This document shows, one piece after another, positions 2 through 41,188 of a stretch of DNA of 41,188 bases. The position numbers and the translations under genes are program-made. Numbering within the stretch: position 1 is the first letter of the stretch; each line of letters begins with the position of its first letter. The notes under the pieces are model-generated. The model did not search any database. It saw only the letters and a list, made by a program, of their open reading frames with translations, and had not been told where the DNA came from. This stretch comes from Polyangiaceae bacterium (GTDB lineage: Bacteria; Myxococcota_A; Polyangia; Polyangiales; Polyangiaceae). The stretch spans positions 1 to 41,188 of the forward strand of contig DASYCL010000684.1 in assembly GCA_036500245.1 (NCBI GenBank). Reading direction: 5' to 3'.

Positions 2-808
2 GGAAGCGGCGAGTCGGGGGGCAAAGCCGGCGCGGGCGGCAACGGCAACCCAGCCGGCGCCGGTGGCGCCGCAGGACGCACGGGCAGCGGCGGAACGGGA
101 ACGACGGGTGGCACCACGACCGGCGGTTCCGCAGCTGCGGGCACGACCGGAAGCGGCGGCACGGGCGCCGCAGCAGGTTCCGGCGGCACCACCGCGACGA
201 CTGAGTTGATCGACGATTTCGAGGATCGCGACTTGGTTCTGTTGATGATCAAGAAGCGCAACGGTCCGTGGTACGCCTTCAACGACGGCAGCAAAACCGA
301 CTCGCAAACTTTCGGGATCGCGTTGCTCACTGACGCTGACGCGCGTAGCGGCAGCTCGAGCACCGCGGGATTGCACATGACCGCTGCATCGGGCTTCACG
401 GGCTTCGGCGCGGGCTTCGGCGCGGACTTCGTCAACACCCAAGCCAAGAAGGTGGCGTACGACGTCTCCGCGTACAAGGGCGTGCGCTTCTACGCGAAGA
501 TTGGGTCCGGCGCTCAGAGTGCGATGAAGGTGCTGTTCCCAACTACCTACTCGGATCCGATGGGCGGGAAATGCAACGACGCCGTCGCGATGATGGGTTG
601 TAACGATCACCTGTTCGAACTCGTCACCTCGATCACCACGACGTGGGCCGTCTACGAAGTCGATTTTTCGGATCTGACCCAGCAGGGTTTTGGCTTGCCG
701 CAAGCCTCGCTCGATCCGACCAGCGTCTACAGTGTGCAATTCACGTTGTCGACCGCCGCATTTCCCGCGGACGTCTGGCTCGACGACATCTCTTTCGTGC
801 TGAAGTGA
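2..808 (+). CDS. CBM11-like carbohydrate-binding protein with Gly/Ala/Thr-rich linker (5'-truncated by window edge)
   Basis: The frame of ORF 206..808 is open back to base 2 and encodes a GSGGTG-type linker. The domain carries IDDFED...WYAFND...DVSAYKGVRFYAK...WLDDISF, typical of CBM11/galactose-binding-like folds. Confidence 0.7.
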   Translation, partial: GSGESGGKAGAGGNGNPAGAGGAAGRTGSGGTGTTGGTTTGGSAAAGTTGSGGTGAAAGSGGTTATTELIDDFEDRDLVLLMIKKRNGPWYAFNDGSKTDSQTFGIALLTDADARSGSSSTAGLHMTAASGFTGFGAGFGADFVNTQAKKVAYDVSAYKGVRFYAKIGSGAQSAMKVLFPTTYSDPMGGKCNDAVAMMGCNDHLFELVTSITTTWAVYEVDFSDLTQQGFGLPQASLDPTSVYSVQFTLSTAAFPADVWLDDISFVLK

Positions 809-811
809 GTG

Positions 812-3001
812 CTAGCGCGTGATTGCGTAGGCGAGCGCAGGGATATCGAAACTAGTCGACAATTTCGAATCGTCCGTCGTCGTGATCGGGATGGCGCGGA
901 CGGCTGCGCCTTTGGCGTCGAGTGATCGAGCGTGCCATGCGGCGCGCGGCAGCCTGAGCGTGACGGGAATGAACTGCGCCAGTGCCGGCCCGGCGCCGAG
1001 CGGCCCCACAGTTTGATCAGTCGCGTTCGGGCGATGCGCATTCTCCGCGCGACCGGCCACATTGAACAGCAGGCGGTGCGAATCGCGCAGCGGCAGGCCG
1101 TCCAGTGCGACTAAGGTCGCGCACGCGAAACGATCGGCGAAATTGCCAAATTCGAGGCTGAATTCGCCGAATCTCAGCGCGCTTTGCGCGACCGTGCCGC
1201 AAACCAATTTCAAACCCGGTGCGTCGACGCTGAAGCGCGGATGCTCGCCTCGCGATTCCCAATAGAGCTCGCCCGAATCACTCCCGATCGCGCCGGTGAC
1301 GTGCAACGCGTAGGAAGCAGTCACGCTGCCGCCTCCGTCCCGCAGGGTGATGCCGATCTGCCGCAATGCCGCCGCGGTCTGCGGCACTCCGTTCATGTTC
1401 CAGAGATTCGGTAGAGCGTTCTCGGCGATCGGCAACGCGAGCGGCTGCTTTGGCACGAGTAGCTCGACGCGGCTCGTTCCGGGCGCGACCAGTCCGCCGC
1501 GGAACGCGGTCGCCGCGGCGGCAACGAATGCGAGCTTCGTCGGATGACCTGCGAGATCGAACACACCGTTGATGCGCGTCGGTTCGTATTCGCGTTTTTG
1601 ATCGGCGTAGCTGAAAGCGAACAACGCGTCCCAATCCTGCAAGCCGGCAACGCCGACCAGGAGCGGGAACATCTCCTCGGCGTAGTCGTTGGGCGTGGCG
1701 ACGGCGTACTCCGAGACACTGAACGGCTTACCGAATACGCGGTAGCTGGCCATCACGCCGAGCGTTCCGCCGTCGGCGGCCGTCACTTGCGAGCTGTTTT
1801 GTAGCGACCAGGTCACATCCTTGCCGCTGCCGCTCGAACGCGGGTGATCCCAAAAACCATGCACGTCGACGAAGTCGCTCAGCTCGGCTTCGCGCAATAC
1901 TCCGGCGAGACCGCCGAAGCTCGCTTGGCTGTCGATCAACATGGAGTGCAGTCCGAGCTCGCCGCGAACGAAGCCGGCGAGCTCCTTGACATTGTCGAGC
2001 TCGACCTTGCGCAAGTACTGGACGTAGTCTGCGCGTGCAGCGTCGGATGCTTGGAACGTCGGCAGTACCGGCTTGGCTTCTTCGAGCGCGGGTCCGGGCG
2101 CTCGCAGGCCTTCTGCGGTGCGCTCCGCGAGCCAGGGCGCGTAGCCTTTTTCGAGCTCCGCGCGATAGCTCGCGGGCGCATCATCGGGACTTCCGGCCCA
2201 CGACGGGAAGATCGTGTCCTCGTTGTCGAGTTCGACGTAGAGCAGCGCGGGCTCCGCGCGATACGGAAGCTTGGTCTCGGCGTTTTCGTGACTCAGCAAA
2301 CGCCGCGCACGTTCGCGCTGGGCAGCCAAAAAAGATCGATCAAAGCGATCAAGCACTTTTCCTTGCGGGAAGCGGGCAAGGGCTTCCCCTTCAAGGCCGG
2401 AATACCCGCCGAGCGCGTGCAGCGTAAACGTGAAATAGAGGCCTTGAGCCTTCAACGCGGCCGCAAAGTGATCGAGTTTCGCGACTGACTCGGGGGCAAG
2501 CTCTCCCGTTTCGCCGAACAGCCCGTGTTCGACATCGAGCCCCAGAAGTCGCACTGCGTTGAAGCCGAGCTTCCTCAAGTGCTTCGCGAGGCGGGTCGCG
2601 GTTTCTGGATCGGGAAAGCACGCGACACCCGTGAGGTTGACGCCAAAAAAACGCAATCGCGTTCCGCGATCGTCGACGAAGTGTCCGAGCTCGGCATGCA
2701 CGAAACCGTGCGCGCCTGCGGGTTCGGCATTGAGCGATGAAAGATCGGTGAACGTGTGCTCGTCATCGAGCCCGCTCGGCTCGACTTCGAACAGCTGGAT
2801 CTCAGGGGTTACCGGCGTGGCACCCAGCCCGGATACTGGAAATTTCTGCTCAGTGTGGCAGCCGAAAAACAGCGCGGATGTGAGAAAAATCAGTCGCGCG
2901 CTGTCTGCTACAGAGATTGCGCGAGCGCTATGACCGCGACTATGGTGGGCCGCCCCGTGCGCTCCGGGTCGCTCAATTTGCCTAAAATCATGCTCGAACA
3001 T
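812..3001 (-). CDS. Clan GH-A (GH5-like) glycoside hydrolase, possible lipoprotein; start uncertain (probably downstream of 3001)
   Basis: Motifs RLRFFGVNL, LRKLGFNAVR, ELDNED (NE acid/base), VDVHGFWDHP, FSVSEY (candidate nucleophile Glu), QDWD. Lipobox-like ALFFGC near the N-terminus. Confidence 0.65.
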   Translation of the reverse strand: MFEHDFRQIERPGAHGAAHHSRGHSARAISVADSARLIFLTSALFFGCHTEQKFPVSGLGATPVTPEIQLFEVEPSGLDDEHTFTDLSSLNAEPAGAHGFVHAELGHFVDDRGTRLRFFGVNLTGVACFPDPETATRLAKHLRKLGFNAVRLLGLDVEHGLFGETGELAPESVAKLDHFAAALKAQGLYFTFTLHALGGYSGLEGEALARFPQGKVLDRFDRSFLAAQRERARRLLSHENAETKLPYRAEPALLYVELDNEDTIFPSWAGSPDDAPASYRAELEKGYAPWLAERTAEGLRAPGPALEEAKPVLPTFQASDAARADYVQYLRKVELDNVKELAGFVRGELGLHSMLIDSQASFGGLAGVLREAELSDFVDVHGFWDHPRSSGSGKDVTWSLQNSSQVTAADGGTLGVMASYRVFGKPFSVSEYAVATPNDYAEEMFPLLVGVAGLQDWDALFAFSYADQKREYEPTRINGVFDLAGHPTKLAFVAAAATAFRGGLVAPGTSRVELLVPKQPLALPIAENALPNLWNMNGVPQTAAALRQIGITLRDGGGSVTASYALHVTGAIGSDSGELYWESRGEHPRFSVDAPGLKLVCGTVAQSALRFGEFSLEFGNFADRFACATLVALDGLPLRDSHRLLFNVAGRAENAHRPNATDQTVGPLGAGPALAQFIPVTLRLPRAAWHARSLDAKGAAVRAIPITTTDDSKLSTSFDIPALAYAITR

Positions 3002-3031
3002 CGTCGCTTCGCTGCCTCAGTCAGACGCCTC

Positions 3032-4240
3032 GTGAACCCAACTCATTTGCGCAGAACGATCATCGGCTGCTCGTTGTTGCTGCCGGCTGTCGCGCATGCG
3101 GGGGCGAAGGATCAGATCGCCACCAAGCTCGCGAACCAAGCGATGCAGACGGACTACGTCGGAACGCAGTTCAAAAAAGCCGAACAGAAGCTGAAAAAAG
3201 CGATTCAACAATGTGGTTCGTCCGCGTGTTCGTACGACGTTGTCGGCAGGCTGCACCGCGATTTGGCGACAGTCTACATCGGCGGCACGAACCAAGTCGC
3301 CAAAGGAAAAGCCGAGCTCAAGCTCGCGCTTCAGGCGAACCCGGATCTGCAGCTCGACAACGATCTCGCCACACCCGAGCTGAAGAAAGACTTCAAAGCG
3401 CTCGGCGGCCACGAGCCGAAGCACGAAGACGAAGACAAGGACGACAGCGACGAAAAGCCCGAGAAACCCGCGGCAAAGGACCAAGATAGCGAAGCGGGAG
3501 AGAACGAGGAAAAGCCGGCTCCGCCGCCGTCGGAAGAGTCGTCGAGCGGCGCGCGGAAAAATTGGGTGAGCATCGGTTTCGAGCAAGATTTTTTGGTTTA
3601 CTCGTCGACCAACGACGTCTGCGCCACGAATGGCATCCCGGACTCGAATCCGCCGAGCAATCAGATTTTTCCGGAAGCGCCCGGATACGCGTGCTTCCAG
3701 GGCGGCTCGCAATACGGCTATAGCGCGGGCCAAACGATCTATCCGAACGCGGGCAACCACGTCGGCGCCGGCGTCGGCGTTTCGACCTCGAGCGTGCTGC
3801 TTGGCTTCGATCGCGTGATCGGTTCGAATTTCAGCGTCGGCGCGCGGGTGGGCTTCGCGTTCGGCGGTGGACCGCAGACCCTCGACGGTTCCAAGTTCCT
3901 ACCGCTGCGCCTCGAGATTCGCGGCAACTACTGGTTCGGAAATGATCCGTTTGCGAGCAGCAGCGTGCGCCCCTACGTCGGGCTGTCTGCAGGCGTGGCC
4001 GAGCTCGATGGTCACGTGCCAGTCGAGTACTACCAGGATGCGGCCGGCTATAGCGCGAACAACAAGGGCACACTCGACGCTTGGCGTCGCGCCGGAAAAA
4101 CGTTTGCAGGCTTGGGCTTTGGTTTGATGGTTCCGATTGCGGGTAGCTCCGGCATCGTGCCGGAGCTGCGCGTGAAAGAAATGTTCGGCTCGAGCTCGTT
4201 GGCATTCGACGCTTCGCTCGGCTACGCCTACGGCTTTTGA
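3032..4240 (+). CDS. Secreted/outer-membrane protein: helical TPR-like N-domain, acidic linker, C-terminal beta-barrel-like domain
   Basis: GTG at 3032 gives a signal peptide ending AVAHA. Followed by a helical region, an EDEDKDDSDE linker and amphipathic strands ending LGYAYGF (terminal Phe). The ORF track start at 2756 overlaps the divergent gene. Confidence 0.6.
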   Translation: MNPTHLRRTIIGCSLLLPAVAHAGAKDQIATKLANQAMQTDYVGTQFKKAEQKLKKAIQQCGSSACSYDVVGRLHRDLATVYIGGTNQVAKGKAELKLALQANPDLQLDNDLATPELKKDFKALGGHEPKHEDEDKDDSDEKPEKPAAKDQDSEAGENEEKPAPPPSEESSSGARKNWVSIGFEQDFLVYSSTNDVCATNGIPDSNPPSNQIFPEAPGYACFQGGSQYGYSAGQTIYPNAGNHVGAGVGVSTSSVLLGFDRVIGSNFSVGARVGFAFGGGPQTLDGSKFLPLRLEIRGNYWFGNDPFASSSVRPYVGLSAGVAELDGHVPVEYYQDAAGYSANNKGTLDAWRRAGKTFAGLGFGLMVPIAGSSGIVPELRVKEMFGSSSLAFDASLGYAYGF

Positions 4241-4294: not shown

Positions 4295-4312
4295 CCTGGA
4301 ACTAGTACCAGG
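4295..4312. promoter_or_regulatory. Palindromic operator-like site 1 (CCTGGAACTAGTACCAGG)
   Basis: Near-perfect 18-bp palindrome in the intergenic region upstream of the CBM11-GH9-GH94 genes. The same motif recurs at five other intergenic positions. Confidence 0.65.
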
Positions 4313-4395
4313 TTCGGTCTTTTCGGCGCGCTCAAGGCACGCTTCGACGCGCTGCGCTGCAGCGCATTCGCCGAGGCCTGGTCGCGGCAGTCGGG

Positions 4396-4411
4396 CTGGA
4401 ACCGATACCAG
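4396..4411. promoter_or_regulatory. Operator-like site 2 (CTGGAACCGATACCAG)
   Basis: 12/14 match to TGGAACCGGTTCCA; core lies exactly 100 bp after site 1. Confidence 0.6.
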
Positions 4412-4531
4412 AAAACTGCCGGCTCGTGGAAAAATTTCGCTCAACTGCAGCCGTGTCAGGCTACTTTCGCGCTCGGTTCATCCGCCCATGTCGTGATCCG
4501 AGCGGCCGCTGGGCTGCGAAATCCCGCAATG

Positions 4532-4545
4532 TGAAATCGGTTCCA
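4532..4545. promoter_or_regulatory. Operator-like site 3 (TGAAATCGGTTCCA) next to -35-like hexamers
   Basis: 12/14 match to the consensus. TTGACG at 4550-4555 and TTGACA at 4585-4590 follow, upstream of ATG 4715. Confidence 0.55.
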
Positions 4546-4714
4546 GGTCTTGACGATTCGTGGTGACTTTGACCGCGGTTTCGGTTGACAGAAACGTACG
4601 GGGAGAAGAACATCGTTGCTCGAGCTCGCGCCGCGATTCGCATGAACTCAGTCGGCCACGTCGACGGTGAACGAGCCAAGTGAGCGAACGCTCGATTTTG
4701 GAGTGACGAACGCG

Positions 4715-5452
4715 ATGAAGGCAACAAAGACGAACGTATGGATGCTCGGTTTGGCTCTCAGCGCTCTGGTGATCGGACTCGGTTGCAAGAAAAAAATCTC
4801 CGCCACCTCCGAAGACGTAAAGAACTCGCCGGAAGGGAAAGCCTGTCCCGCGAGTGAAGGCATGATCTCGGACGGCGAAGCCAACAGCAACCAGATCAAC
4901 CCGATCAAGGGTCGTGGTGGCTATTGGTACACCTTCGTGGACTCGAACGGTTCGACCATCACGCCGACGGCTGGCTCGCAAGGCGGCACGTTCGCGATGT
5001 CGCCGGGCGGTGCCAAGGACACCAAGTACGCTGCGCACATGACGGGCCAAGTCGGAACCGCGGATACGGTTTATGCCGGCATGGGCTTCAACTTCGTGGA
5101 CCCGAAAGGCCAATACGACGCGACTGCGTATAAAGGCATCTCGTTTTGGGCCAAAAAAGGCCCGGGATCGACCGGCAACGTTCGGCTCAAGTTCCCCGAC
5201 TCGAACACCGACCCGGACGGCAAAGTCTGCAAAGAGTGCTTCAACGACTTCGGCATGGATCTGCAGCTGACGGATCAGTGGACGCAGTACGTGATTCCGT
5301 ACGTCGGGATGACGCAGATGAAGGGTTGGGGTTCGCCGCACACGCCGGGCGTCGACACGTCGAAGGTCTACGGCATGCAATGGCAGGTGAACGAGAAGGG
5401 CGCAAAGTTCGACATCTGGGTCGACGAGATTCAGTTCACGGGTTGCCCGTGA
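4715..5452 (+). CDS. CBM11-like carbohydrate-binding lipoprotein
   Basis: GGAG RBS before ATG 4715; lipoprotein signal MKATK...LVIGLGC; motifs GGYWYTFVD, YDATAYKGISFWAK, FDIWVDEIQF; paralogous to the ORF at 2..808. Confidence 0.8.
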   Translation: MKATKTNVWMLGLALSALVIGLGCKKKISATSEDVKNSPEGKACPASEGMISDGEANSNQINPIKGRGGYWYTFVDSNGSTITPTAGSQGGTFAMSPGGAKDTKYAAHMTGQVGTADTVYAGMGFNFVDPKGQYDATAYKGISFWAKKGPGSTGNVRLKFPDSNTDPDGKVCKECFNDFGMDLQLTDQWTQYVIPYVGMTQMKGWGSPHTPGVDTSKVYGMQWQVNEKGAKFDIWVDEIQFTGCP

Positions 5453-5519
5453 TCCCCAGTTGATGCGCGGCGCGTGCACGAGGGCGCGCCGCGCTCAGCG
5501 CGGAGTCGGAGACGAAGCG

Positions 5520-7877
5520 GTGAAGATTGTGCCGGGCGCCCTGCGCGTAGCGAGTGTCTGCGGAGTGTTAATCGCGGGTTGCATTCCGCGCCGCACGCCC
5601 CTACCGAACGGCGCCGTACTGACACGTTCGGATGCCGCGAGTGTGCCGGCCACCGCCGGCAACAATCTGCTCAAAAACAGCTCGTTCGACGGGGGCGTCA
5701 GCTTGCCGTGGATGACCTCGTTCTCTGCGCCCGGTGACGGCAAAGCCGACGTCGTCAATGGTGCGCTGTGCGTCAAGGTGACGAACAAAGGCGCGAACGC
5801 TTGGGACGCGCAGGTTCGTCATCGCGAGATGGTGATTCAGCGGGGTCATACCTATACGGTGCAGTTTCGCGCTTACGCGTCGGCGCCGACGAAGGCGCGG
5901 CCCAAAGTCGGCATGTCCGGCGCGCCATACGCCGAGTACTGGTCATCGACGATCGACGTGGGGACGGAACCGAAGCTCTACAGCGCGGCCTTCACGATGC
6001 GTGGGAACGACGATCCGACGGCGGAGTTTGCCTTCCATATCGGTGGCAACATGGCAGAAGCGTCGACCCCGTTCGACTTCTGCATCGACGACGTGCGGCT
6101 CGATGACCCGGCGTTCACGCCGAGCGCGGACTCCGCGCATATCGTCGCGGTGCCGAATATCCTCGTGAACGAGCTCGGCTATCTGCCGAACGCCGCGAAA
6201 ATTGCGACATTGAAGAGCAATGCGATGACGCCGCTCGAGTGGCAGCTCGTCGATTCATCGGGGAAGGGCGCCGCGAAGGGCAGAACCCAGGTCTTCGGCG
6301 CGGACGCGGCTTCCGGCGACCACCTGCACGAGATTGACTTTAGCGATCTGAAAACGACGGGCGAGGGCTTCACGCTCAAAGTCGAAAGCGACACGAGCTT
6401 GCCGTTTCGGATCGATTCGCATCTCTACAAGAAGCTCAAGTACGATGCGCTGTCGTACTTTTATCAAAATCGCAGCGGCATCGAGATTGCGCCGGCGTTG
6501 GTCGACGATCCATCGCTGGCGCGCCCCGCGGGCCACCTCGGGGACAAGAACGTCAAATGCATGCCGGACAGTGGTTGCGACTACTCGCTCGACGCGAGTG
6601 GCGGTTGGTACGACGCGGGCGACCACGGAAAATACGTGGTGAACGGCGGCATCGCAGTGTGGACACTGCTCAATGAATACGAGCGTGCGAAGTTCCTCGG
6701 CTCGAGCAGCGCCGATTTCGGCGACGGCAAGCTCAAGATCCCGGAGCACAATAACCGGGTCCCCGATCTGCTGGACGAAGCGCGTTGGGAGCTCGAGTTC
6801 ATGCTCAAGATGCAAGTGCCGGCGGGCCAACCCAAGGCCGGGATGGTACATCATAAGCTGACCGATGCGGATTGGACCGGGCTCGGTACCGCTCCGCACG
6901 AAGACAAACTGCCGCGCTATCTGCACGCGCCGAGCACCGCCGCGACGCTCAACCTCGCGGCAACCGCGGCGCAGGCAGCCCGTATTTGGAAAACGATCGA
7001 CGCCGCTTTCTCGGCGAAGTGTCTGGCCGCGGCCGAAACAGCGTGGCTCGCGGCGAAAGCCAACCCCAAGGTTTATGCCTCGGCGAGCGACACTCGAGGC
7101 GGCGGCTCATACGCCGACGAGAACACGAGCGACGAGTTCTACTGGGCGGCGGCCGAGCTGTTCATCACCACCGGCAAGCCGGAATACAAGCAATTCCTCA
7201 ACGCTTCACCGTTCAGCCAACACTTTCGCAGCGCGGCCGGCGGGCACTCGTCGTCGATGAATTGGTCGGATACGGATGCGCTCGGGCAGATTTCGCTCGC
7301 GGTCGTACCGAACGGGCTCGATGCAGGAGCGGTGAAGGAGCTCCGCGCGCGTATCGCCACAGCTGCGGAGCATTACTTGAAAGTCGAGCAGGGCGAAGGC
7401 TATCGCACGCCGCTCGAGCGCAATGCGCAGGGGCAATACGTGTGGGGTTCGAATTCGTTCGTGCTCAATAACTTGATCGTGCTCGCGCTCGCGTACGACT
7501 TCAGCAAAGAACGGCGCTACTTGGACGGTGTCGCGACGGGCATGGACTACTTGCTCGGTCGCAACCCGCTCGCTCAATCCTACGTTTCGGGTTACGGCTC
7601 GAAGCCGCTCGAGAATCCTCATCATCGCTTTTGGGCTTATCAGGCGAACCATAAATATCCGCACGCGCCCGCAGGAGCCGTGTCCGGCGGTCCAAATTCG
7701 AGCGTCGATGATCCTTATGCCAAAGCCGCCGGCTTGCGCGGGTGCGCCGCGGAGAAATGCTTCGTCGATAATATCGAGGCTTATTCGGTCAACGAGATCG
7801 CGATCAATTGGAACGCGCCACTCGCTTGGGTGAGCGCGTTCCTGGACGAAAAAGCGCACGCGAGCGCGCCACAGTAA
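5520..7877 (+). CDS. GH9 cellulase with CBM4/9 and Ig-like (CelD_N) domains, lipoprotein
   Basis: Lipobox VLIAGC after GTG 5520; CBM4 motifs [20 protein letters not shown]; Ig-like VNELGYLP; GH9 signatures [29 protein letters not shown]. Confidence 0.92.
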
Positions 7878-7944
7878 TGTTCGCAAACGAGAACGAGAGC
7901 CTTCGTCAGTAGTTTCAATCAGCCCCTTTTGGAGCCTCAAAGTC

Positions 7945-10380
7945 ATGCGTTTTGGTCATTTCGACGACAGCAACAAAGAATACGTCATCACCACGCCGAA
8001 GACTCCGTACCCGTGGATCAACTACCTCGGCACCGAGAACTTTTTCGGGCTCGTCTCCCACCAGGGCGGCGGTTATTGCTTCTATCGGGACGCGCGGCTG
8101 CGTCGCCTGACGCGCTACCGCTACAACAACGTGCCGACCGATTCGGGCGGTCGCTATTTCTACATCAACGAGGGCGGGGACGCCTGGACGCCGACCTTCA
8201 TGCCGATGAAGAAAGAGCTCGAGTCATTCGAGTGTCGGCATGGACTCGGCTACACGCGCATCGCTGGCAAGCGCAATGGGCTCCGCGCCGAAGTCCTTTA
8301 TTTCGTGCCGCTCGGTGAGACGGCTGAAGTGCATCAAGTGACGTTGAAGAACGAGAGCGCGAGCGCGAAGAAGTTCAAACTGTTCTCGTTCATCGAGTTC
8401 TGCCTGTGGAACGCCCACGACGATGCGACCAACTTCCAGCGCAACTTCAGCACCGGTGAAGTCGAAGTCGACGGCAGCACGATCTATCACAAGACCGAAT
8501 ATCGCGAGCGCCGCGACCACTTTGCATTTTATCACGTGAACGCGAAGGTTGCGGGTTTTGACACCGATCGCGAGTCGTTCATCGGGGTTTACAACGGCTT
8601 TGGTGATCCGGACGTGCCGCTTGCCGGCGAGTCGAAAAATACGGTTGCGAGTGGCTGGTCTCCGATTGCGTCGCACGGTCTCGATGTCTCGCTCGCGCCG
8701 GGCGAGGAAAAGACGTTCGTGTTCGTGCTCGGCTATGTCGAAAATGCGCGCGATGAGAAGTGGGAAAAGCCGGGCATCATCAACAAGACGCGCGCCAAGG
8801 CACTGATCGCAAAATTTTCGAGCGCGGAGCAAGTGAGCGCTGCGCTCGCCAAGCTACGCGAGCATTGGAACGGCATGCTCTCGACTTATGCGATCGAGTC
8901 GAGCGACGAAAAACTGAATCGGATGGTCAATATCTGGAATCCGTATCAGTGCATGGTCACGTTCAACATGTCGCGCAGCGCGTCGTATTTCGAGTCGGGC
9001 ATCGGGCGCGGCATGGGCTTTCGGGATTCGAACCAGGATTTGCTCGGCTTCGTGCACCTCGTGCCGGAACGCGCGCGCGAACGCATCATCGACATTGCCT
9101 CGACGCAATTCGCCGACGGCAGCGCGTACCATCAGTATCAACCGCTGACCAAGCGCGGCAACAATGACGTCGGCAGCGGTTTCAACGACGACCCGCTGTG
9201 GCTCATTTTGGGCGTCTCCGCATACATCAAGGAGACCGGCGATTATGGCATTTTGGACGAGCAAGTGCCGTTCGACAACGACACCAAGAATCAAGCAAGC
9301 TTGCTCGAGCATTTGAAGCGCTCGTTCGATCATGTGACCAACAATCTCGGGCCGCACGGCTTGCCGCTGATCGGCCGCGCGGATTGGAACGATTGTTTGA
9401 ATCTGAATTGCTTCTCCGAAACGCCGGACGAGCCGTTTCAAACCACGGGCAATCGCACCGGGCGCACGGCGGAGTCCGTGTTCATCGCGGGCATGTTCGT
9501 GCACATCGGACCGGAGTACGCGAAGATCGCGGAGTACAAGGGTCAAAAGGCAGAAGCCGAGCGCGCGCGCAGCGAAGTCGTGAAGATGGAAAAAACCGTG
9601 CTCGCGCACGGCTGGGACGGCCAATGGTTCCTGCGTGCGTACGATTTCTTCGGCAAGAAGATCGGCAGCAAGGATTGCCCCGAAAGCGACGCGCAAATTC
9701 TGATCGAGCCGCAAGGCTATTGCGTCATGGCCGGCATCGGCGTGGCGACGGGCGAGGCTAAAAAAGCACTCGATTCAGTCAAAGAGCGACTCGATACGCG
9801 TTACGGCATCGTGCTCAATAACCCGCCGTACCGCGACTATCACGTCGAGCTCGGCGAGATCTCGTCATACCCGCCGGGTTACAAAGAGAACGCGGGCATC
9901 TTCTGCCACAATAACCCCTGGGTGATGATCGCGGAGACGGTGATCGGGCGTGGCGAGCGCGCCTTCGAATACTACAAGAAGATCGCGCCCGCCTACATCG
10001 AGGACATCAGCGAGATCCATCGCACCGAGCCGTACGTGTACTCGCAGATGATCGCGGGCAAAGACGCCGTGCATCACGGCGAAGCCAAAAACTCCTGGCT
10101 CACCGGCACCGCGGCTTGGAACTTCGTCGCGATCTCGCAGTACCTGCTCGGCATTCGCCCGGAGTGGGACGGCTTGTGTGTGAAGCCGTGTATCGGCAAA
10201 GAGGTGGCGGAGTTCACCGTCACGCGCAAGTGCCGTGGCGCGACGTACCGCATTCGAGTCAAGAGCTCGGGTGGGACGGGCAACGTGAAACTCACAGTCG
10301 ACGGCAAAGCCATTTCCGGCCACCTCGTGCCATACGCGAAGGCGGGCAGCACCGTGAACATCGAGTGCGAAGCGAGCTGA
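7945..10380 (+). CDS. cbp: Cellobiose phosphorylase (GH94)
   Basis: 811 aa; N-terminus [81 protein letters not shown], all as in known cellobiose phosphorylases. No signal peptide. Confidence 0.93.
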
Positions 10381-10389
10381 ATCCGCGCG

Positions 10390-10407
10390 CCTGGAACCAG
10401 TTCTAGG
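10390..10407. promoter_or_regulatory. Operator-like site 4 (CCTGGAACCAGTTCTAGG)
   Basis: Palindrome 10 bp after the GH94 stop and ~75 bp before the vWA gene; 12/14 match to the consensus. Confidence 0.65.
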
Positions 10408-10430
10408 AAAATGCGTTAACAATCTCCGAC

Positions 10431-10458
10431 GGAGCACGGGACTTGTGGCCCGTGCTCC
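10431..10458. other. Perfect 10-bp stem hairpin (GGAGCACGGG-N8-CCCGTGCTCC): terminator or 5'-UTR structure
   Basis: Inverted repeat visible between the GH94 and vWA genes; no U-tract on the + strand. Confidence 0.45.
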
Positions 10459-10480
10459 CGGAAAAAGCTAAGCTACGCAC

Positions 10481-11725
10481 ATGAGTAGTCTGCGGACGCA
10501 GCGCTTTTGCGGCGCGCTTGGTCTCGGCTTGGGCGTGGGGTTGTTGCTAGCTACGGCGTGCAGCGCGAACAAGGGTGCGCCGGGCAGCGCGGTGCGCCCG
10601 GGTGGAACTGGTGCCGGAACGGGCGCGGGTGGCACCGGTACCGGGGTCGGTGCGGGCTCCGGCGACGGCAACACCGGCAACATCAACACCGCGAGCGGTG
10701 GCACCAGTGGCACGGACGCGGGCGCTTGTCAGAGTATGGAGCTCGACTTCACTCCAAAGACTCCGACGGTGTTCGTGTTGGTCGATCGCTCGGGCAGCAT
10801 GTTCGAAGCGCCGAATCCGCCGTGGGAGCCGCTCAAGATGGGCGCCTTGCAGGTGATCCAAGAACTTCAGAATGACGTCGCGTTTGGTTGGGGCGCGTTT
10901 ACCGGTCAAGCCGGCGTGAAGTGCCCGGATTTCGCGTCGGTCCCGCCAGCCAAGAACAACTACGACGCGATCAACATGGTCTACGGAACCATGGGTGCGA
11001 CCGGATATAAGTCGGAAACGCCAGTCGGCGAAGCGCTGCCGCTCGCGGCGCAAGCGCTCGCGCAATCACCGGAAGATGGCAACAAGTACATCTTGTTCGT
11101 GACCGACGGTCAGCCCGACTTCTGCGACGACGGCGACGAAAATTGCCCGTTGGACGACGTCGTCTATCAGCTTCAAAAGCTCAATAAAACCGGGATCAAC
11201 ACGATCATCTTCGGTTTGCAGAATGGCAACGTGCCGCCGCAGACGCTGCAGGCATTCGCCAACGCTGGCGCCGGACAACCCGTTGCGGCTCCGTTCACGG
11301 GCACCGCGATGGATGTCTACTACTCGTGCCAGAGCGAAGCGGGCTGGAAGGCGGACTACGCCGAGGCCGGCGTCACGGGCATGAGTGCGGTCGCCGCCTA
11401 TGCGGCGACCGGCGGAATGACGAAGTACTATTCACCCGATGTGACGGACCAAGATGCGTTAACGACGCAGCTTCGCACCGTGCTCGCTGGCGTGAAGAGC
11501 TGCTTGTTCGATCTGAGCAAGTTCACGATCGATCTCAACGGGTTGGACCAAGCGTCGGTCCTCGTGCAGGGGCAAACCGTGCCGCTGGATTCGACCAACG
11601 GTTGGCGCATGAATTCCGAGTCGCAACTCGAACTCGTGGGTTCGGCCTGCACCAATTGGCAACAGCCGCAAAACACCAAGATCGACTTCAATTTCCCGTG
11701 TGACATCGTCACTGTCGTGAGGTGA
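10481..11725 (+). CDS. von Willebrand factor A domain lipoprotein
   Basis: Lipobox LLATAC, Gly/Thr linker, MIDAS motif VLVDRSGSM...ETP...FVTDGQP, Cys-containing C-terminal region typical of myxobacterial vWA proteins. Confidence 0.85.
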   Translation: MSSLRTQRFCGALGLGLGVGLLLATACSANKGAPGSAVRPGGTGAGTGAGGTGTGVGAGSGDGNTGNINTASGGTSGTDAGACQSMELDFTPKTPTVFVLVDRSGSMFEAPNPPWEPLKMGALQVIQELQNDVAFGWGAFTGQAGVKCPDFASVPPAKNNYDAINMVYGTMGATGYKSETPVGEALPLAAQALAQSPEDGNKYILFVTDGQPDFCDDGDENCPLDDVVYQLQKLNKTGINTIIFGLQNGNVPPQTLQAFANAGAGQPVAAPFTGTAMDVYYSCQSEAGWKADYAEAGVTGMSAVAAYAATGGMTKYYSPDVTDQDALTTQLRTVLAGVKSCLFDLSKFTIDLNGLDQASVLVQGQTVPLDSTNGWRMNSESQLELVGSACTNWQQPQNTKIDFNFPCDIVTVVR

Positions 11726-11814
11726 AGCTCGCGGTCAGCGCGTAGGAGCGCTGAGCCGCTTGACGTCCGATTGGGTCGGTGACGGGTTTGCGGACTTAGG
11801 TCGCTTTGCAAGCG

Positions 11815-11838
11815 AATGGCACCTCGTCAGGTGCCATT
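11815..11838. terminator. Hairpin between convergent genes (AATGGCACCT-CGTC-AGGTGCCATT)
   Basis: Perfect 10-bp stem with a 4-nt loop between the stop codons at 11725 and 11875; lacks a clear U-tract. Confidence 0.5.
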
Positions 11839-11874
11839 GCCATTCATCATTGCGACTAGGCGAAGTCGGAACTC

Positions 11875-13740
11875 TCACCACCACATGGTGGCTTCGATCT
11901 TGAACACGTTCTCGTCTGGGGTGAACGTCGGAGCGCCGCGCATGTTGGTCTGCGAAATCGGCGAAGCGCCGAAACCAGTCGGCGGAACTGGCGAGGACGG
12001 CGGCTGGGCACAGAATTCCTGGCCCGGTGTGTAGACGCCGGTCGCGGGGTTCACCGGCATGCCGTTCACGGGGTTACAAGTGCGCTTGTTGTACATGTAG
12101 CGCGAGTATTGGAGCGTGATCGCTTCGCGCGTGAGCCACTTCGACTTGAACACCAGCCGTGGTGAGAGAATCGAGAAGGATTGCTCCGGAATGCGGCTGT
12201 TCGGTTGCAAGCGATCGAAGCGTACGGCAGCGGTAAGCCAGGGTAGGGCCGACCAAGCCAAATCGGCGCCGTACTTGAGCTTGTGAATGCCGTTGATCGC
12301 GTCCACGTCGCTCTTCACCTTGTTGTACATGCCGTAGAGCTTCAGATAGAGATCGGGGCCGTCCCCCCAGAATTTCTGCCCGCCGGAGCTCATCTGCGAG
12401 AAGTTCGTGAGGCTGAACTCGTATTGCGCGAGCAAGGTGTCCACGCCGCCATTGCCGAGGCTGCACTGTTCTCCCATCATGTAGAAGGCTGGGCTGCGCG
12501 CCGCAGCATCTCCAACGCAGCTCGGCCCGAGGTAGTTGTCCACCATGCCGAGACCGAATTCACCGCCGCCCGAGGCGTGGATCACTTCGATCGCGCGACT
12601 CACCGTAAGCGCATCCTTCAATCCAACATGCGAGTACGCGGCGTATAAGTACCCCATCGCACCGAGATCGAAGCGGCCGTCCACACCAGCGGTCCACATT
12701 TTGCCGTCCCCGATATCGTAAATCGAGGTAGCCGTGTTGCCGCCCGTCGGCAGAGGCGTTGTAAAACCGCCGGTCTCGAGCCCAGCGCCCGTCCGCATTT
12801 CTTCGGACGACCATGAGTCCATGTAGTGCGCCGAGAATTGAATTGCCTCCGTGTGCTTGAATCCCACGTGGAAGTGGTCGAGCATCGTGAAACGCGCGTT
12901 GTTGAACTGGCTCGGATCGGGTTTTTTCACGCCGATACCGTGCTCGAACCAGAGTGAGTTCTCTTCGTCGATGTCGTAATCGATGTGCAGCGCTTCACCG
13001 GAGTTGTGAATGCGGCCGAACATGTACGTGTCGTACTCGCCGGCGTCGTACTTACCGGCCGAACCGTATTTGTTCGAGAACGATCCAACGCGCCATGCCA
13101 GCCGGACATTTTCGTAACCGAGGTCCGGAGTGAGATCGATGTAGCCGTCTGATACGCCGAGCTGCGACGCCGCGTTAGCAAACGAGCCCTGATAAAAATC
13201 GTAGCCCTGGATTGACACGGTGCCTTTCGCCCAGGAGTTACCGAGCGAGATGTAAAGCTCGGCCCAGTCCGTTTTATTGTGCGGATTGCTGGCCCAGCTC
13301 AGGTACTGGTCATCGGGAATGACTGGCGCGTGGAGCGAAGTTCCCGTTGCGGCGTTGGGGTACATCGGGTCCGCCACGCGCTTGCCCATGCCAACGCGCA
13401 TCGGCGCGCGGATGTAGCCGTGGTATTCGAACTTCCAGCTGTCGTCGTCTTTGGCGACAGCGGGGCCGGAGACGTTGGTCACTGCGCCCCCTTCGGTCGC
13501 TTTGGCCTTTGCCGCGGGCGTCGTTTCCGGAGTCACCGGAGACGGGGCCGGGTTTGCTTTCGACGGCTCGGCGGGCGGTGCGGGCTCGGAATCGGGCGCT
13601 GGGCCTTCCGGCTTCGGGGCCGGCGTTGTGTCTTTGAGTTCGACCTTGTCGGGCGGCGGAGCAGTCGGCGCCGCATCCTGCGCGGCCGCCGGGACGGCGA
13701 AAAAGAGACCCGAAAAGAAAATGAGGGAGAGTTTACGCAT
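11875..13740 (-). CDS. Outer-membrane beta-barrel protein, candidate LamB-like carbohydrate porin
   Basis: Sec signal ending PAAA-Q, Pro/Ala-rich linker, barrel start WKFEYHGYIRA (compare LamB VDFHGYARS), aromatic-rich alternating strands, C-terminus FKIEATMWW (LamB ends in ...EIWW). Confidence 0.6.
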   Translation of the reverse strand: MRKLSLIFFSGLFFAVPAAAQDAAPTAPPPDKVELKDTTPAPKPEGPAPDSEPAPPAEPSKANPAPSPVTPETTPAAKAKATEGGAVTNVSGPAVAKDDDSWKFEYHGYIRAPMRVGMGKRVADPMYPNAATGTSLHAPVIPDDQYLSWASNPHNKTDWAELYISLGNSWAKGTVSIQGYDFYQGSFANAASQLGVSDGYIDLTPDLGYENVRLAWRVGSFSNKYGSAGKYDAGEYDTYMFGRIHNSGEALHIDYDIDEENSLWFEHGIGVKKPDPSQFNNARFTMLDHFHVGFKHTEAIQFSAHYMDSWSSEEMRTGAGLETGGFTTPLPTGGNTATSIYDIGDGKMWTAGVDGRFDLGAMGYLYAAYSHVGLKDALTVSRAIEVIHASGGGEFGLGMVDNYLGPSCVGDAAARSPAFYMMGEQCSLGNGGVDTLLAQYEFSLTNFSQMSSGGQKFWGDGPDLYLKLYGMYNKVKSDVDAINGIHKLKYGADLAWSALPWLTAAVRFDRLQPNSRIPEQSFSILSPRLVFKSKWLTREAITLQYSRYMYNKRTCNPVNGMPVNPATGVYTPGQEFCAQPPSSPVPPTGFGASPISQTNMRGAPTFTPDENVFKIEATMWW

Positions 13741-13847
13741 GGGGTTTCGTTCCTGAGTCGATCGCCGACTATCCTAACGGCCGAACCCGCTCATGGTCCT
13801 GACCGTGCTCTATTCCTATCAGAGTCGGAACGGAGTCGAAAGACAAA

Positions 13848-13865
13848 TGTGGAAACAGTTCCACA
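13848..13865. promoter_or_regulatory. Operator-like site 5 (TGTGGAAACAGTTCCACA)
   Basis: 18-bp near-palindrome ~110 bp upstream of the porin-like gene start. Confidence 0.65.
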
Positions 13866-13916
13866 CGCGTGCGGCCTGGATTCGCCTGGATACCGCCCTA
13901 CTTGCAAAAGTGAAGC

Positions 13917-13930
13917 TGGAACCGGTTGCT
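13917..13930. promoter_or_regulatory. Operator-like site 6 (TGGAACCGGTTGCT)
   Basis: 12/14 match to the consensus, 67 bp from site 5. Confidence 0.5.
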
Positions 13931-14164
13931 GGATTCGGCTGGTGATCAATTCTGCTCGCGTTTTGCGCAGAATTGCGCGGGAATTAGCTGCCCTTACTAT
14001 CGAGCAACGCGCGCGGACGCGCGAGAAATTCGCGGCATGCGTGGCTCGGGCCCGGCACAGCGACAAGCTTCGCGGCGCAGCACTTTCGCAGCAAGGGCGA
14101 CACTTCTTGCGCGAGACTCTCGCCGTGTGGAGTCGAGTGAGCTCGGATGTTTGGGTGTTTGGCT

Positions 14165-14517
14165 CCTGCCGATTCATCACATCTCCGGCTCTTCTTTTCG
14201 CGCCGGAGCGCGCGCGAAGGCTGGCAACCGAATGCCCTTCTTTCGCACCGGAGCGGCGCGCGAACGCCGGCAGCCGAATGCCCGGAAATAAAACCTGCCG
14301 ATTCATCACATCTCGATCTCTTCTTTCGCGCCGGAGCGCGCGCGAAGGCCGGCAGCCGAATGCCCGGAAATAAAACAAAGCCAGCAGGTTCGCGCGGCTG
14401 ATCACGGTTCTGGAATGATGGGCGGCCACGTTAGAACTGACCGAACAGGCGCCAGTCGCGTCGCTCGATGCGCGAGTGGCCAAGCGCCGTGCTAGCCCAG
14501 GGCCCCAAAACATCCCC
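14165..14517. repeat. Modular dispersed repeat, copy A (three REP-like units plus a ~120-bp tail)
   Basis: TTTCGCGCCGGAGCGCGCGCGAAGG..GGCA.CCGAATGCCC units at ~14196, ~14241 and ~14324. CCTGCCGATTCATCACATCTC occurs twice (14165, 14294). The tail 14396-14517 aligns with 23038-23211. Confidence 0.8.
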
Positions 14518-29343: not shown

Positions 29344-30198
29344 ATGTTCGAACCGGAACCGGTTGCAAACTATCACTGCAAGGTCGGTGAAAATCCGCTT
29401 TGGGACGAGCGCGAGCGCCGCCTCTACTGGGAAGATATCGAGAGCAATCGCTTGTTCCGCGTCGACCACGAGAGCCGCGAGCACGAATGTTTTTTCACCG
29501 GCGACAGCATGATCGGTGGATTTTCGTTTCAGGAAGACGGCTCATTGCTGCTATTCGAAGCCGATCGCATTTCGGTGCTGACGAAGCAGGGAGCGCATCG
29601 CGTGCTCGTGTCAGGCATCGACGCCGATATGCGGCGCTTCAACGACGTGATTGCCGATCCCGAAGGCCGGGTGTTTGCCGGCACGATTGGCAAAACCGAT
29701 CAGAGCGGGGGCCTTTACCGCGTGGATCTCGACGGCACGGTGACGCCGTTGTGGAAGGGCACGGGGTGCGCGAACGGCATGAGCTTCACCTCGGATTTGT
29801 CGCGCTTCTATTGGACGTGCAGCACGACGCGGATCATCTACGTCGCCGACTACGATCGCGCGACGGGAACGCTCAGCAATCGCAAACCGTTTTATCGAGC
29901 GCCGCCCGAAGAAGGCACGCCGGACGGCATGACCATCGACGAAGCGGGTGAACTGTGGTCGGCACGCTGGGGCGGCTCCTCGCTGCTCCGCATCGCAGAG
30001 GATGGAACCATCAAACAAAAAATCGAATTTCCGGTAACGCGCGTGTCGTCCGCCGCGTTCGGCGGTCCGGATTTGCGCACGCTCTACGTCACGACCGCCG
30101 GCGGCAAAGTCACGGACGACGCACTCGACGGCACGCTCTATCGCTTGGAAGTGCCGGTTCCGGGTCGACTCGAGTTTCGCTCCCGGATCCGGCTCTAA
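29344..30198 (+). CDS. SMP-30/gluconolactonase/LRE family protein
   Basis: GENPLWD, LYWEDI, RFND...DPEGR, ANGMSF, PDGMTIDEAGELW, AFGGPDLRTLYVTTA. Confidence 0.9.
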   Translation: MFEPEPVANYHCKVGENPLWDERERRLYWEDIESNRLFRVDHESREHECFFTGDSMIGGFSFQEDGSLLLFEADRISVLTKQGAHRVLVSGIDADMRRFNDVIADPEGRVFAGTIGKTDQSGGLYRVDLDGTVTPLWKGTGCANGMSFTSDLSRFYWTCSTTRIIYVADYDRATGTLSNRKPFYRAPPEEGTPDGMTIDEAGELWSARWGGSSLLRIAEDGTIKQKIEFPVTRVSSAAFGGPDLRTLYVTTAGGKVTDDALDGTLYRLEVPVPGRLEFRSRIRL

Positions 30199-41000: not shown

Positions 41001-41188
41001 TCATCGGCATGTTGCCGATGTCGCTCGGTTTGGGTGAGGGGGGCGAGCAAAACGCGCCGCTGGGCCGCGCCGTCATCGGCGGCCTGATGCTCGCCACCGT
41101 GACCACGCTCTTCTTCGTTCCCGTGATGTACAGCTTGCTGCGCACCAAGCCGCCCGCCGCCATCGATCCGACTTTGGAGGAAGTATGA
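38008..41188 (+). pseudogene. RND efflux permease (AcrB/CzcA/NolG family) split by a frameshift near 39829; real lesion or sequencing error
   Basis: ATG 38008 MWLVLVALKRPYTF, DIFPDIDIP, GILVDDA...ENI. The second frame 39830-41188 has RLRPVIMTALAMIIGMLP. The fused product would be ~1060 aa. Confidence 0.85.

What the first reader, a model, noticed from the sequence alone, without database searches (positions are those of the whole stretch)
4295..13930. Six copies of a TGGAACCGGTTCCA-like palindrome define a candidate cellobiose regulon
Cores seen: 4297 TGGAACTAGTACCA, 4397 TGGAACCGATACCA, 4532 TGAAATCGGTTCCA, 10392 TGGAACCAGTTCTA, 13850 TGGAAACAGTTCCA, 13917 TGGAACCGGTTGCT. All are intergenic and upstream of CBM11-GH9-GH94, the vWA gene or the porin gene. 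The 14-bp TG-N-AA-N-CG-N-TT-N-CA shape is typical of LacI-family operators (compare actinobacterial CelR, TGGGAGCGCTCCCA). No LacI gene lies in the window, so the regulator would act in trans. Multiple sites per promoter (100, 135 and 67 bp apart) suggest DNA looping (inference).
Basis: partly seen in the sequence, partly recalled or inferred. Interest (0 to 1): 0.7.

Follow-up and report, generated by a model that had tools for sequence, protein, structure and literature searches.

The report
Myxobacterial cellulose regulon operator sites
A 16-base palindrome sits in front of many cellulose-digesting genes across an uncultured myxobacterial genus and is likely the binding site of a LacI-type repressor that would switch them on when cellobiose appears; the same sites flag a porin and several proteins of unknown function as likely parts of that system.

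Summary
The six palindromes are real, lie outside genes, and belong to a genome-wide motif, CTGGAAC(C/T)(G/A)GTTCCAG. Of 53 genome matches, 37 are intergenic against 12% expected. Genes right behind sites are enriched for cellulase and beta-glucoside enzymes (14 of 62 against 1 of 109 controls, p=2.6e-6). The site before the CBM11-like/GH9/cellobiose-phosphorylase genes recurs in 16 of 17 relatives of this uncultured Polyangiaceae genus. The likely regulator is a stand-alone LacI on contig C459: it is in 23 of 24 relatives, is the only LacI found in two genomes that keep the site, has operator-like repeats before its own gene in close relatives, and its K15-S16 residues partly fit a published LacI code. 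It works like actinobacterial CelR/CebR but with another consensus. Cellobiose as inducer, repression and binding are inferred, not shown. DNA looping is not supported. The regulon also takes in a maltoporin-fold porin, four Cip1-like proteins and two DUF1592/DUF1552 cytochrome operons related to Cellvibrio Cbp2D-type proteins. Verdict: new member of a known kind, useful as a parts list.

The parts
4296..4311 (.). Operator-like palindrome, about 410 bp upstream of the CBM11-like gene
   Evidence: 19.1 bits; in-frame stop
4396..4411 (.). Operator-like palindrome, about 310 bp upstream of the CBM11-like gene
   Evidence: (22.1 bits)
4531..4546 (.). Gene-proximal operator-like palindrome of the CBM11-like/GH9/GH94 run; a site is found here in 16 of 17 relatives
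   Evidence: (21.4 bits)
4715..5452 (+). Predicted lipoprotein with a CBM11-like fold; candidate surface glucan-binding protein
   Evidence: no Pfam/NCBIfam hit; model pLDDT 89.8, top Foldseek hits CBM11, E 2e-8, TM 0.60
5520..7877 (+). CBM4-Ig-GH9 cellulase, CelK-like (start codon uncertain, 5460 or 5520)
   Evidence: Pfam; NCBIfam CelK 836 bits, below its 1700 cut-off
7945..10380 (+). GH94, closest to cellobiose phosphorylases
   Evidence: Pfam; 1318 bits to solved cellobiose phosphorylases against 434 to chitobiose phosphorylase
10391..10406 (.). Operator-like palindrome about 80 bp upstream of the vWA gene; weakly conserved
   Evidence: 20.6 bits; 2 of 7 relatives
10481..11725 (+). vWA-domain predicted lipoprotein, function unknown
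   Evidence: Pfam VWA E 3e-5; weak CglB hit far below cut-off
11875..13740 (-). Outer-membrane porin of an unnamed Myxococcota family; candidate cellodextrin channel
   Evidence: Atlas; model pLDDT 68; Foldseek: chitoporin, maltoporin, sucrose porin, best TM about 0.5
13849..13864 (.). Operator-like palindrome about 115 bp upstream of the porin gene
   Evidence: 16.0 bits; porin promoter has a site in 7 of 9 relatives
13916..13931 (.). Second operator-like palindrome upstream of the porin gene
   Evidence: (20.1 bits)

Best explanation
The six palindromes are part of a genome-wide 16-bp motif in front of cellulase, beta-glucoside and uptake genes, and are likely operators for a stand-alone LacI-family protein (contig C459) that would repress these genes until cellobiose or a cellodextrin releases it. 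Shown: the motif, its place outside genes, its enrichment before cellulose/beta-glucan enzymes, its conservation at orthologous promoters, and the co-occurrence of that LacI. Inferred: that this LacI binds the motif as a dimer, that it represses, and that the ligand is cellobiose. In this model surface cellulases (GH9, GH6, GH45, GH12, some GH5) cut cellulose, the CBM11-like lipoprotein holds the products, the porin admits them, GH94, GH1 and GH3 cleave them, and rising cellobiose lifts repression at some 30-40 promoters, including a ROK-family regulator gene.
For: Intergenic enrichment: 37 of 53 matches at 2 or fewer mismatches; 120 permuted-palindrome controls average 13%, maximum 50%. A matrix from the six window sites alone gives 31 of 43 intergenic hits outside the window. 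51 of 65 site-gene pairs have an in-frame stop between site and gene. First genes behind sites: 14 of 62 carry GH/CBM/Cip1 domains against 1 of 109 controls (p=2.6e-6). No site before GH10 (1), GH43 (3), GH13 (8 entries), GH16 (3), PL1 (2) or recA (2), some with truncated upstream DNA. Conservation in relatives: CBM promoter 16 of 17, porin 7 of 9, ROK gene 22 of 27, DUF1592 operon 17 of 26, DUF1552 operon 17 of 28, against 81 of 4064 genes in this genome; site columns 0.84 conserved against 0.45/0.49 in flanks. The motif fits the LacI backbone (T)G-A-CG-T-C(A) (PMC2978694). The C459 LacI is in 23 of 24 relatives with recognition residues KSTVSR unchanged; it is the only LacI match in G003 (98% complete) and G017, both of which keep the CBM site. 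Three or four operator-like units at 20-21 bp period precede its own gene in the near clade. The published K15S16 class includes GA/GA (4), GA/GT (8) and GA/GG (2) sites, the mixtures seen here.
Against: No binding, ligand or expression data. The published K15S16 class is mostly GG/GG (44 sites), whereas half-sites here are mostly GA (80 of 140, partly a product of the matrix). A scoring site before the lacI gene occurs in only 4 of 23 relatives in one set and 11 of 23 in an overlapping set; the distant clade has none. G024 lacks this LacI, yet keeps a 17.5-bit site before its DUF1592 gene. Several cellulase-family genes with intact upstream DNA have no site (GH5 on C768 and C856, GH9 on C671). 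48 of 62 first genes have no CAZyme Pfam hit. Exact matches in five distant genomes were often inside coding sequence, several in Gly/Thr/Ser linkers. No consensus promoter could be placed against the sites (3 of 42; 0), so repression is assumed from the family. Relatives are kin, not independent tests.
Confidence: 0.62

Rival explanations
1. Same LacI and same sites, but the signal is general sugar status (glucose, a glucose phosphate or another beta-glucoside), making it a broad carbon regulator in the manner of CcpA or FruR and possibly an activator at some promoters.
For: The lacI gene sits among housekeeping genes, not sugar genes. Regulon size is in the 'global' range of PMC4052901. Sites also precede a ROK-family gene, an AraC gene, an ECF sigma factor with a glycogen-debranching gene behind it, an epimerase, and (divergently) enolase.
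Against: Starch, xylan, pectin and GH16 enzymes lack sites; the conserved core is cellobiose phosphorylase, its porin and the CBM lipoprotein; paralogues of this LacI group sit beside GH1, GH44, GH43 and sugar transporters.
Confidence: 0.22
2. The motif is bound by another regulator: the paralogous P15M16 LacI on C442, a LacI missing from this 80%-complete assembly, or the ROK or AraC protein.
For: Related LacI paralogues in other genomes have motif-like sites before their own genes. The ROK gene carries the best-conserved upstream sites. G024 keeps one site without the KS LacI.
Against: G003 and G017 have one LacI match each, the KS protein. The ROK orthologue was not found in G021 (95% complete), G013, G005 or G011, which keep the sites. 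The C442 LacI has its own different perfect palindrome nearby.
Confidence: 0.11
3. The motif is a by-product: codons for Gly-Thr-Gly-Ser linkers in mis-called genes, arms of a REP-like repeat, or a LexA box.
For: Read in frame the core spells Gly-Thr-Gly-Ser, and such linkers explain many coding hits, including two of my 'intergenic' calls (C739, C164) and several exact hits in distant genomes. A similar 17-bp hairpin repeat exists in 13 copies.
Against: All six window sites and 51 of 65 genome pairs are cut off from the gene by an in-frame stop; flanks of the strong sites are unrelated, unlike those of the repeat; neither recA gene has a site; no Rfam match in the window.
Confidence: 0.03

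Closest known systems
CelR/CebR regulon of Thermobifida and Streptomyces (TGGGAGCGCTCCCA; PMC5332605, passages and table read)
   Same: 14-bp palindrome on the LacI backbone before scattered cellulase and cello-oligosaccharide uptake genes (GH5, 6, 9, 12); natural CebR boxes include the half-site TGGaAcCG seen here.
   Different: Consensus differs at 4 of 14 positions; other phylum; the candidate protein is only distantly like solved LacI proteins (best full-length hits are PurR, about 120 bits); uptake would go through a porin and CBM lipoprotein; the regulator gene is not beside a sugar operon.
K15S16 class of TVSR LacI regulators (PMC2978694; text parts 1-4 of 7, Table S1 and Fig. S6 read as machine-extracted text)
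   Same: KSTVSR recognition helix; G at NT-6 and NT-5; GA/GA, GA/GT and GA/GG sites occur in both.
   Different: That class is mostly GG/GG; here GA dominates. The hinge has Phe where most members have Leu (AA-54), and the central step is CG in 54 of 70 sites, CA/TG in 11, TA in 3.
Cellvibrio japonicus Cbp2D and Teredinibacter X122/X132 proteins (PMC8981238, PMC12542752, PMC10916295; passages read)
   Same: The regulated DUF1592 protein has one CxxCH and matches the C-terminal half of proteins with CBM2, YceI, cytochrome c and DUF1592 domains, one named Cellvibrio sp. (31% identity, E 8.5e-43). Its operon is followed by a Cip1-like gene with its own site; X122 domains are Cip1-like.
   Different: Here the modules are separate predicted lipoproteins without CBM2, paired with DUF1552; no AA10 LPMO match in 4 of 5 genomes tested, one weak partial match in the fifth. 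I did not align Cbp2D itself; equating X132 with DUF1592 rests on domain order.
Global LacI regulons CcpA, FruR, PurR (PMC4052901; passages and supplement term searches)
   Same: Many operons, stand-alone regulator gene, patchy autoregulation.
   Different: Annotated targets centre on one substrate; no myxobacterial entry found in that paper's supplements.

Membership tests
LacI-family operator | Even palindrome on the (T)G-A-CG-T-C(A) backbone | tested here: met
   Matrix; backbone from PMC2978694; centre CG in 54 of 70 sites
LacI-family operator | Located in promoter regions and conserved at orthologous promoters | tested here: met
LacI-family operator | A LacI protein co-occurs with the motif | tested here: met
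   23 of 24 relatives; sole LacI match in G003 and G017; exception G024 keeps one site
LacI-family operator | Recognition residues fit the half-site | tested here: inconclusive
   K15S16 allows GA, GT and GG, but GG/GG dominates the published class
LacI-family operator | Autoregulatory site before the regulator gene | tested here: inconclusive
   Present in the near clade, weak half-site arrays in a second, none in the distant clade
LacI-family operator | Direct, ligand-sensitive binding | not testable with these tools
   needs EMSA or footprinting
CelR/CebR regulon | Consensus TGGGAGCGCTCCCA | tested here: not met
   Consensus here TGGAACCGGTTCCA; only hybrid half-sites in some relatives
CelR/CebR regulon | Sites before cellulases and cello-oligosaccharide uptake and cleavage genes | tested here: met
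CelR/CebR regulon | Regulator orthologous to CelR/CebR | not tested
   No tree with CelR/CebR was built; no characterised close relative appeared or 101
CelR/CebR regulon | Cellobiose is the inducer | not testable with these tools
   inferred from regulon content only
Looping repressor (E. coli LacI type) | Tetramer helix and conserved, phased operator spacing | tested here: not met
SOS (LexA) box | Site before recA | tested here: not met
   best scores 1.7 and 7.9 bits

The most novel reading that the evidence does not exclude
The operator outlines a complete myxobacterial cellulose-use system with no known counterpart: a new porin family and a CBM11-like lipoprotein for cellodextrin capture, plus a co-regulated redox arm (DUF1592 cytochrome with DUF1552, Cip1/X122-like proteins, possibly di-haem and octahaem cytochromes) that attacks or conditions cellulose without an LPMO. 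This would give regulatory evidence from a second phylum that the unexplained Cbp2D-type and Cip1 modules work in cellulose breakdown.
Probability: 0.25. Interest if true: 0.75.

Novelty: new member of a known kind. Interest (0 to 1): 0.48.

Why it matters
Polyangiaceae are major labelled cellulose users in soil isotope work (PMC8545098, passages), yet my searches found no description of how any myxobacterium regulates its cellulases. The operator gives a candidate regulator and a parts list. It ties four groups of proteins of unknown function to cellulose: the porin family, the CBM11-like lipoprotein, four Cip1-like proteins (fungal Cip1 is co-regulated with cellulases and has no settled activity, PMC3764139), and two DUF1592/DUF1552 operons. 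Each is testable with purified protein even though the genus appears uncultured. The regulatory logic itself is ordinary.

Tried and rejected
DNA looping: rejected for now; spacings of 91-94 and 107-110 bp recur at the ROK promoter and 94 bp at three porin promoters of related genomes, which may be shared descent. ROK protein as the regulator: not found in four genomes that keep the sites. LexA box and REP repeat: rejected. Codon artefact: explains coding hits only. Replication by exact pattern in five distant genomes (22 loci) was mostly uninformative: about 5 sat clearly upstream of expected genes (GH9, a GH12-like gene, two porins, the AraC orthologue), at least 4 were Gly/Thr/Ser linker codons and several more lay inside domains; I do not count it as support. 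C475 cytochrome/DUF1501 pair: site in 1 of 16 relatives, so not a conserved member. Cip1 orthologue of C570: 4 of 7 relatives. Promoter placement failed. PDB sequence search for the CBM-like protein gave only spurious antibody hits. A family-wide pattern count was at about control level in most genomes outside the genus; the LacI subfamily was found in 7 of 118 genomes outside it. Rfam: nothing. Earlier scan notes: none returned. Literature searches without a prior description: and supplement search 39; the library lacks most subscription papers and RegPrecise itself could not be queried. Gene calls outside the window come from my own codon-based caller.
Full report
Observation. The six cores are at the stated places. 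The window has 9 matches within 3 mismatches of the consensus against 1.2 expected, and no shuffle of 100 reached 9. The six named sites are intergenic and each is separated from its gene by an in-frame stop; the other three matches are coding. The window is contig C684 of a 5.45-Mb, 965-contig, 80%-complete genome. The nearest relatives of its LacI are labelled Polyangiaceae or Myxococcales metagenome bins.

Genes under the sites. 4715-5452 has no profile hit but folds like CBM11 (pLDDT 89.8; E 2e-8, TM 0.60). 5520-7877 is CBM4-Ig-GH9. 7945-10380 scores 1318 bits against cellobiose phosphorylases and 434 against chitobiose phosphorylase. 10481-11725 is a vWA protein. 11875-13740 is a beta-barrel of an unnamed Myxococcota porin family whose model (pLDDT 68) best resembles chitoporin, maltoporin and sucrose porin at TM up to about 0.5; that shows a porin, not its substrate.

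Genome-wide motif. Of 53 matches at 2 or fewer mismatches, 37 are intergenic, where 12.4% of positions are; 120 palindromes of permuted half-sites average 13% and reach at most 50%. A matrix from the six window sites alone finds 43 strong hits elsewhere, 31 intergenic. The refined 16-bp matrix, CTGGAAC(C/T)(G/A)GTTCCAG, gives 59 hits of 16 bits or more, 44 intergenic. Only centre lengths 2 and 3 stand out, and the 3-base form is mostly a separate repeat.

Regulon content. I scanned 78 genes behind sites on 50 of the 52 selected contigs (two had no downstream gene) and 109 first genes from 26 contigs, 24 drawn at random from site-free ones. Of 62 first genes, 14 carry GH1, GH2-like, GH3 (2), GH5, GH6, GH12, GH45 (2), CBM3 or Cip1-like (4) domains; 1 of 109 controls does (GH18) (Fisher p=2.6e-6). 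Two of the 62 later proved to be coding hits; neither was counted as a CAZyme. GH10, GH43, GH13, GH16, PL1 and recA genes have no site, though some lack upstream DNA. Against a neat picture, two GH5, one GH9 and some GH3 genes with intact upstream DNA also have none, and 48 of 62 first genes have no CAZyme hit; many are predicted lipoproteins of unknown function.

Conservation. In relatives of the same genus a site of 12 bits or more lies upstream of the CBM11-like gene in 16 of 17, the porin in 7 of 9, a ROK-family gene in 22 of 27, one DUF1592-DUF1552 operon in 17 of 26 and a second in 17 of 28; the vWA gene in 2 of 7, a Cip1 orthologue in 4 of 7 and the C475 pair in 1 of 16. The rate over all genes of this genome is 81 of 4064. 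At the CBM promoter the site is 0.84 conserved, its flanks 0.45 and 0.49. These genomes are kin, so the counts are not independent. Outside the genus the pattern is at about control level in most genomes.

The codon trap. In frame the core reads Gly-Thr-Gly-Ser, a common linker in these lipoproteins. This explains many coding hits and spoiled my exact-pattern replication in five distant genomes. It does not explain the promoter sites: 51 of 65 site-gene pairs have an in-frame stop between them, and most of the rest lie upstream of an evident start and read in varying frames.

Regulator. The genome has three LacI genes. One is beside arabinose genes and has YQ residues; one (C442, PM) has its own different palindrome. 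The third (C459, 11347-12384, minus strand) has KSTVSR, sits among housekeeping genes and is found in 23 of 24 relatives with the recognition helix unchanged. G003 (98% complete) and G017 have no other LacI match and keep the CBM site. G024 (98%) lacks this LacI and the phosphorylase and has no strict match, but keeps one 17.5-bit site. In the near clade three or four operator-like units at 20-21 bp period precede the lacI gene; a second clade has weaker half-site arrays; the distant clade has none. In the published LacI code (PMC2978694) K15S16 proteins bind GG/GG most often (44) but also GA/GT (8), GA/GA (4) and GA/GG (2) (read from machine-extracted tables); sites here are GA/GA 19, GA/GG 11, GA/GT 10 and AA/GA 10 of 70. 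The fit is partial. The ROK protein was not found in four genomes that keep the motif, so it is more likely a target.

Mechanism. Most likely a LacI dimer sits on these sites and blocks transcription, and cellobiose or a cellodextrin entering through the porin releases it, inducing cellulases, uptake, phosphorylase and glucosidases together. Binding, direction and ligand are inferred from family knowledge and regulon content. Looping is not supported: spacings are neither conserved nor phased and the protein lacks the E. coli LacI tail.

Comparison with the known. It works like actinobacterial CelR/CebR, whose boxes include a TGGaAcCG half-site (PMC5332605), but the consensus differs and orthology was not tested, so it is not filed as a member. 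I found no prior report of the motif or of a myxobacterial cellulase regulon (supplements of PMC4052901; PMC12093494 has no mention of LacI). The library is incomplete, and bioRxiv supplements were closed.

What is new. The regulon links unexplained proteins to cellulose. Two of the four Cip1-like proteins were searched against the PDB and both hit fungal Cip1 (E 4e-22 and 2e-12). The DUF1592 protein matches the C-terminal half of CBM2-YceI-cytochrome-DUF1592 proteins, the domain order described for Cellvibrio Cbp2D, which is needed for growth on insoluble cellulose and whose X132 domain is unexplained (PMC8981238, PMC12542752, PMC10916295, passages). A role of these domains in carbohydrate use was already suggested from gene context (PMC5615132; a CBM2-DUF1592 protein in PMC6004670). 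No LPMO was found in 4 of 5 genomes. DUF1592 is a large family here, and only some copies carry sites.

Verdict. Real feature; new member of a known kind; best explanation 0.62; interest 0.48.

Noticed in passing
G000 contigs C32, C64, C103, C407, C424, C470, C514, C595, C636, C672, C786, C848, C955: A separate REP-like hairpin repeat of about 60 bp with a 17-bp palindromic core resembling the operator and conserved flanks; 13 copies.
   Followed up: partly
window 14165-14365; also L024 12550-13090: Interspersed GC-rich direct and inverted repeats (42-nt and 33-nt units) between the porin and MFS genes; a related unit lies upstream of the lacI gene.
   Followed up: no
L024 12481-12538; L128; L106: Tandem operator-like units at 20-21 bp period before the lacI gene, some with one extra central base; copy number varies from 1 to 4 among close relatives.
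   Followed up: partly
L054 about 1494-1513 and G000:C510 upstream of GH43: The second LacI (P15M16) has its own perfect palindrome beside a sugar symporter gene, and a similar site precedes a GH43 gene: possibly a second small regulon.
   Followed up: no
LacI on C459, hinge helix: Hinge reads YTPWTTARNF, with Phe in place of the usual Leu and a Trp, the same in all orthologues but one seen; it may relate to tolerance of CA/TA at the operator centre.
   Followed up: no
window 2-4240: A second CBM11-like gene (2-808), a 629-aa secreted enzyme-like gene without Pfam hit (812-2701) and a barrel-like gene (2930-4240) stay near the CBM-GH94 genes in many relatives.
   Followed up: partly
window 29353-29368: A 15.6-bit match in the first codons of a gluconolactonase-family gene; probably coding coincidence, but the enzyme could fit oxidative sugar use.
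   Followed up: no
L048 1969-3804; L004 462-1781: An octahaem cytochrome c divergent from a GH3 gene shares a 23.6-bit site, and a di-haem oxidoreductase has an 18.2-bit site; conservation not tested.
   Followed up: no
G000:C214 877-2489: A second CBM11-like/GH94 pair, 88% identical in GH94, without a site in the short upstream DNA; duplicate or bin contamination.
   Followed up: no
window 38008-41188: The AcrB-type efflux gene is split into two overlapping reading frames near 39839-39888.
   Followed up: no
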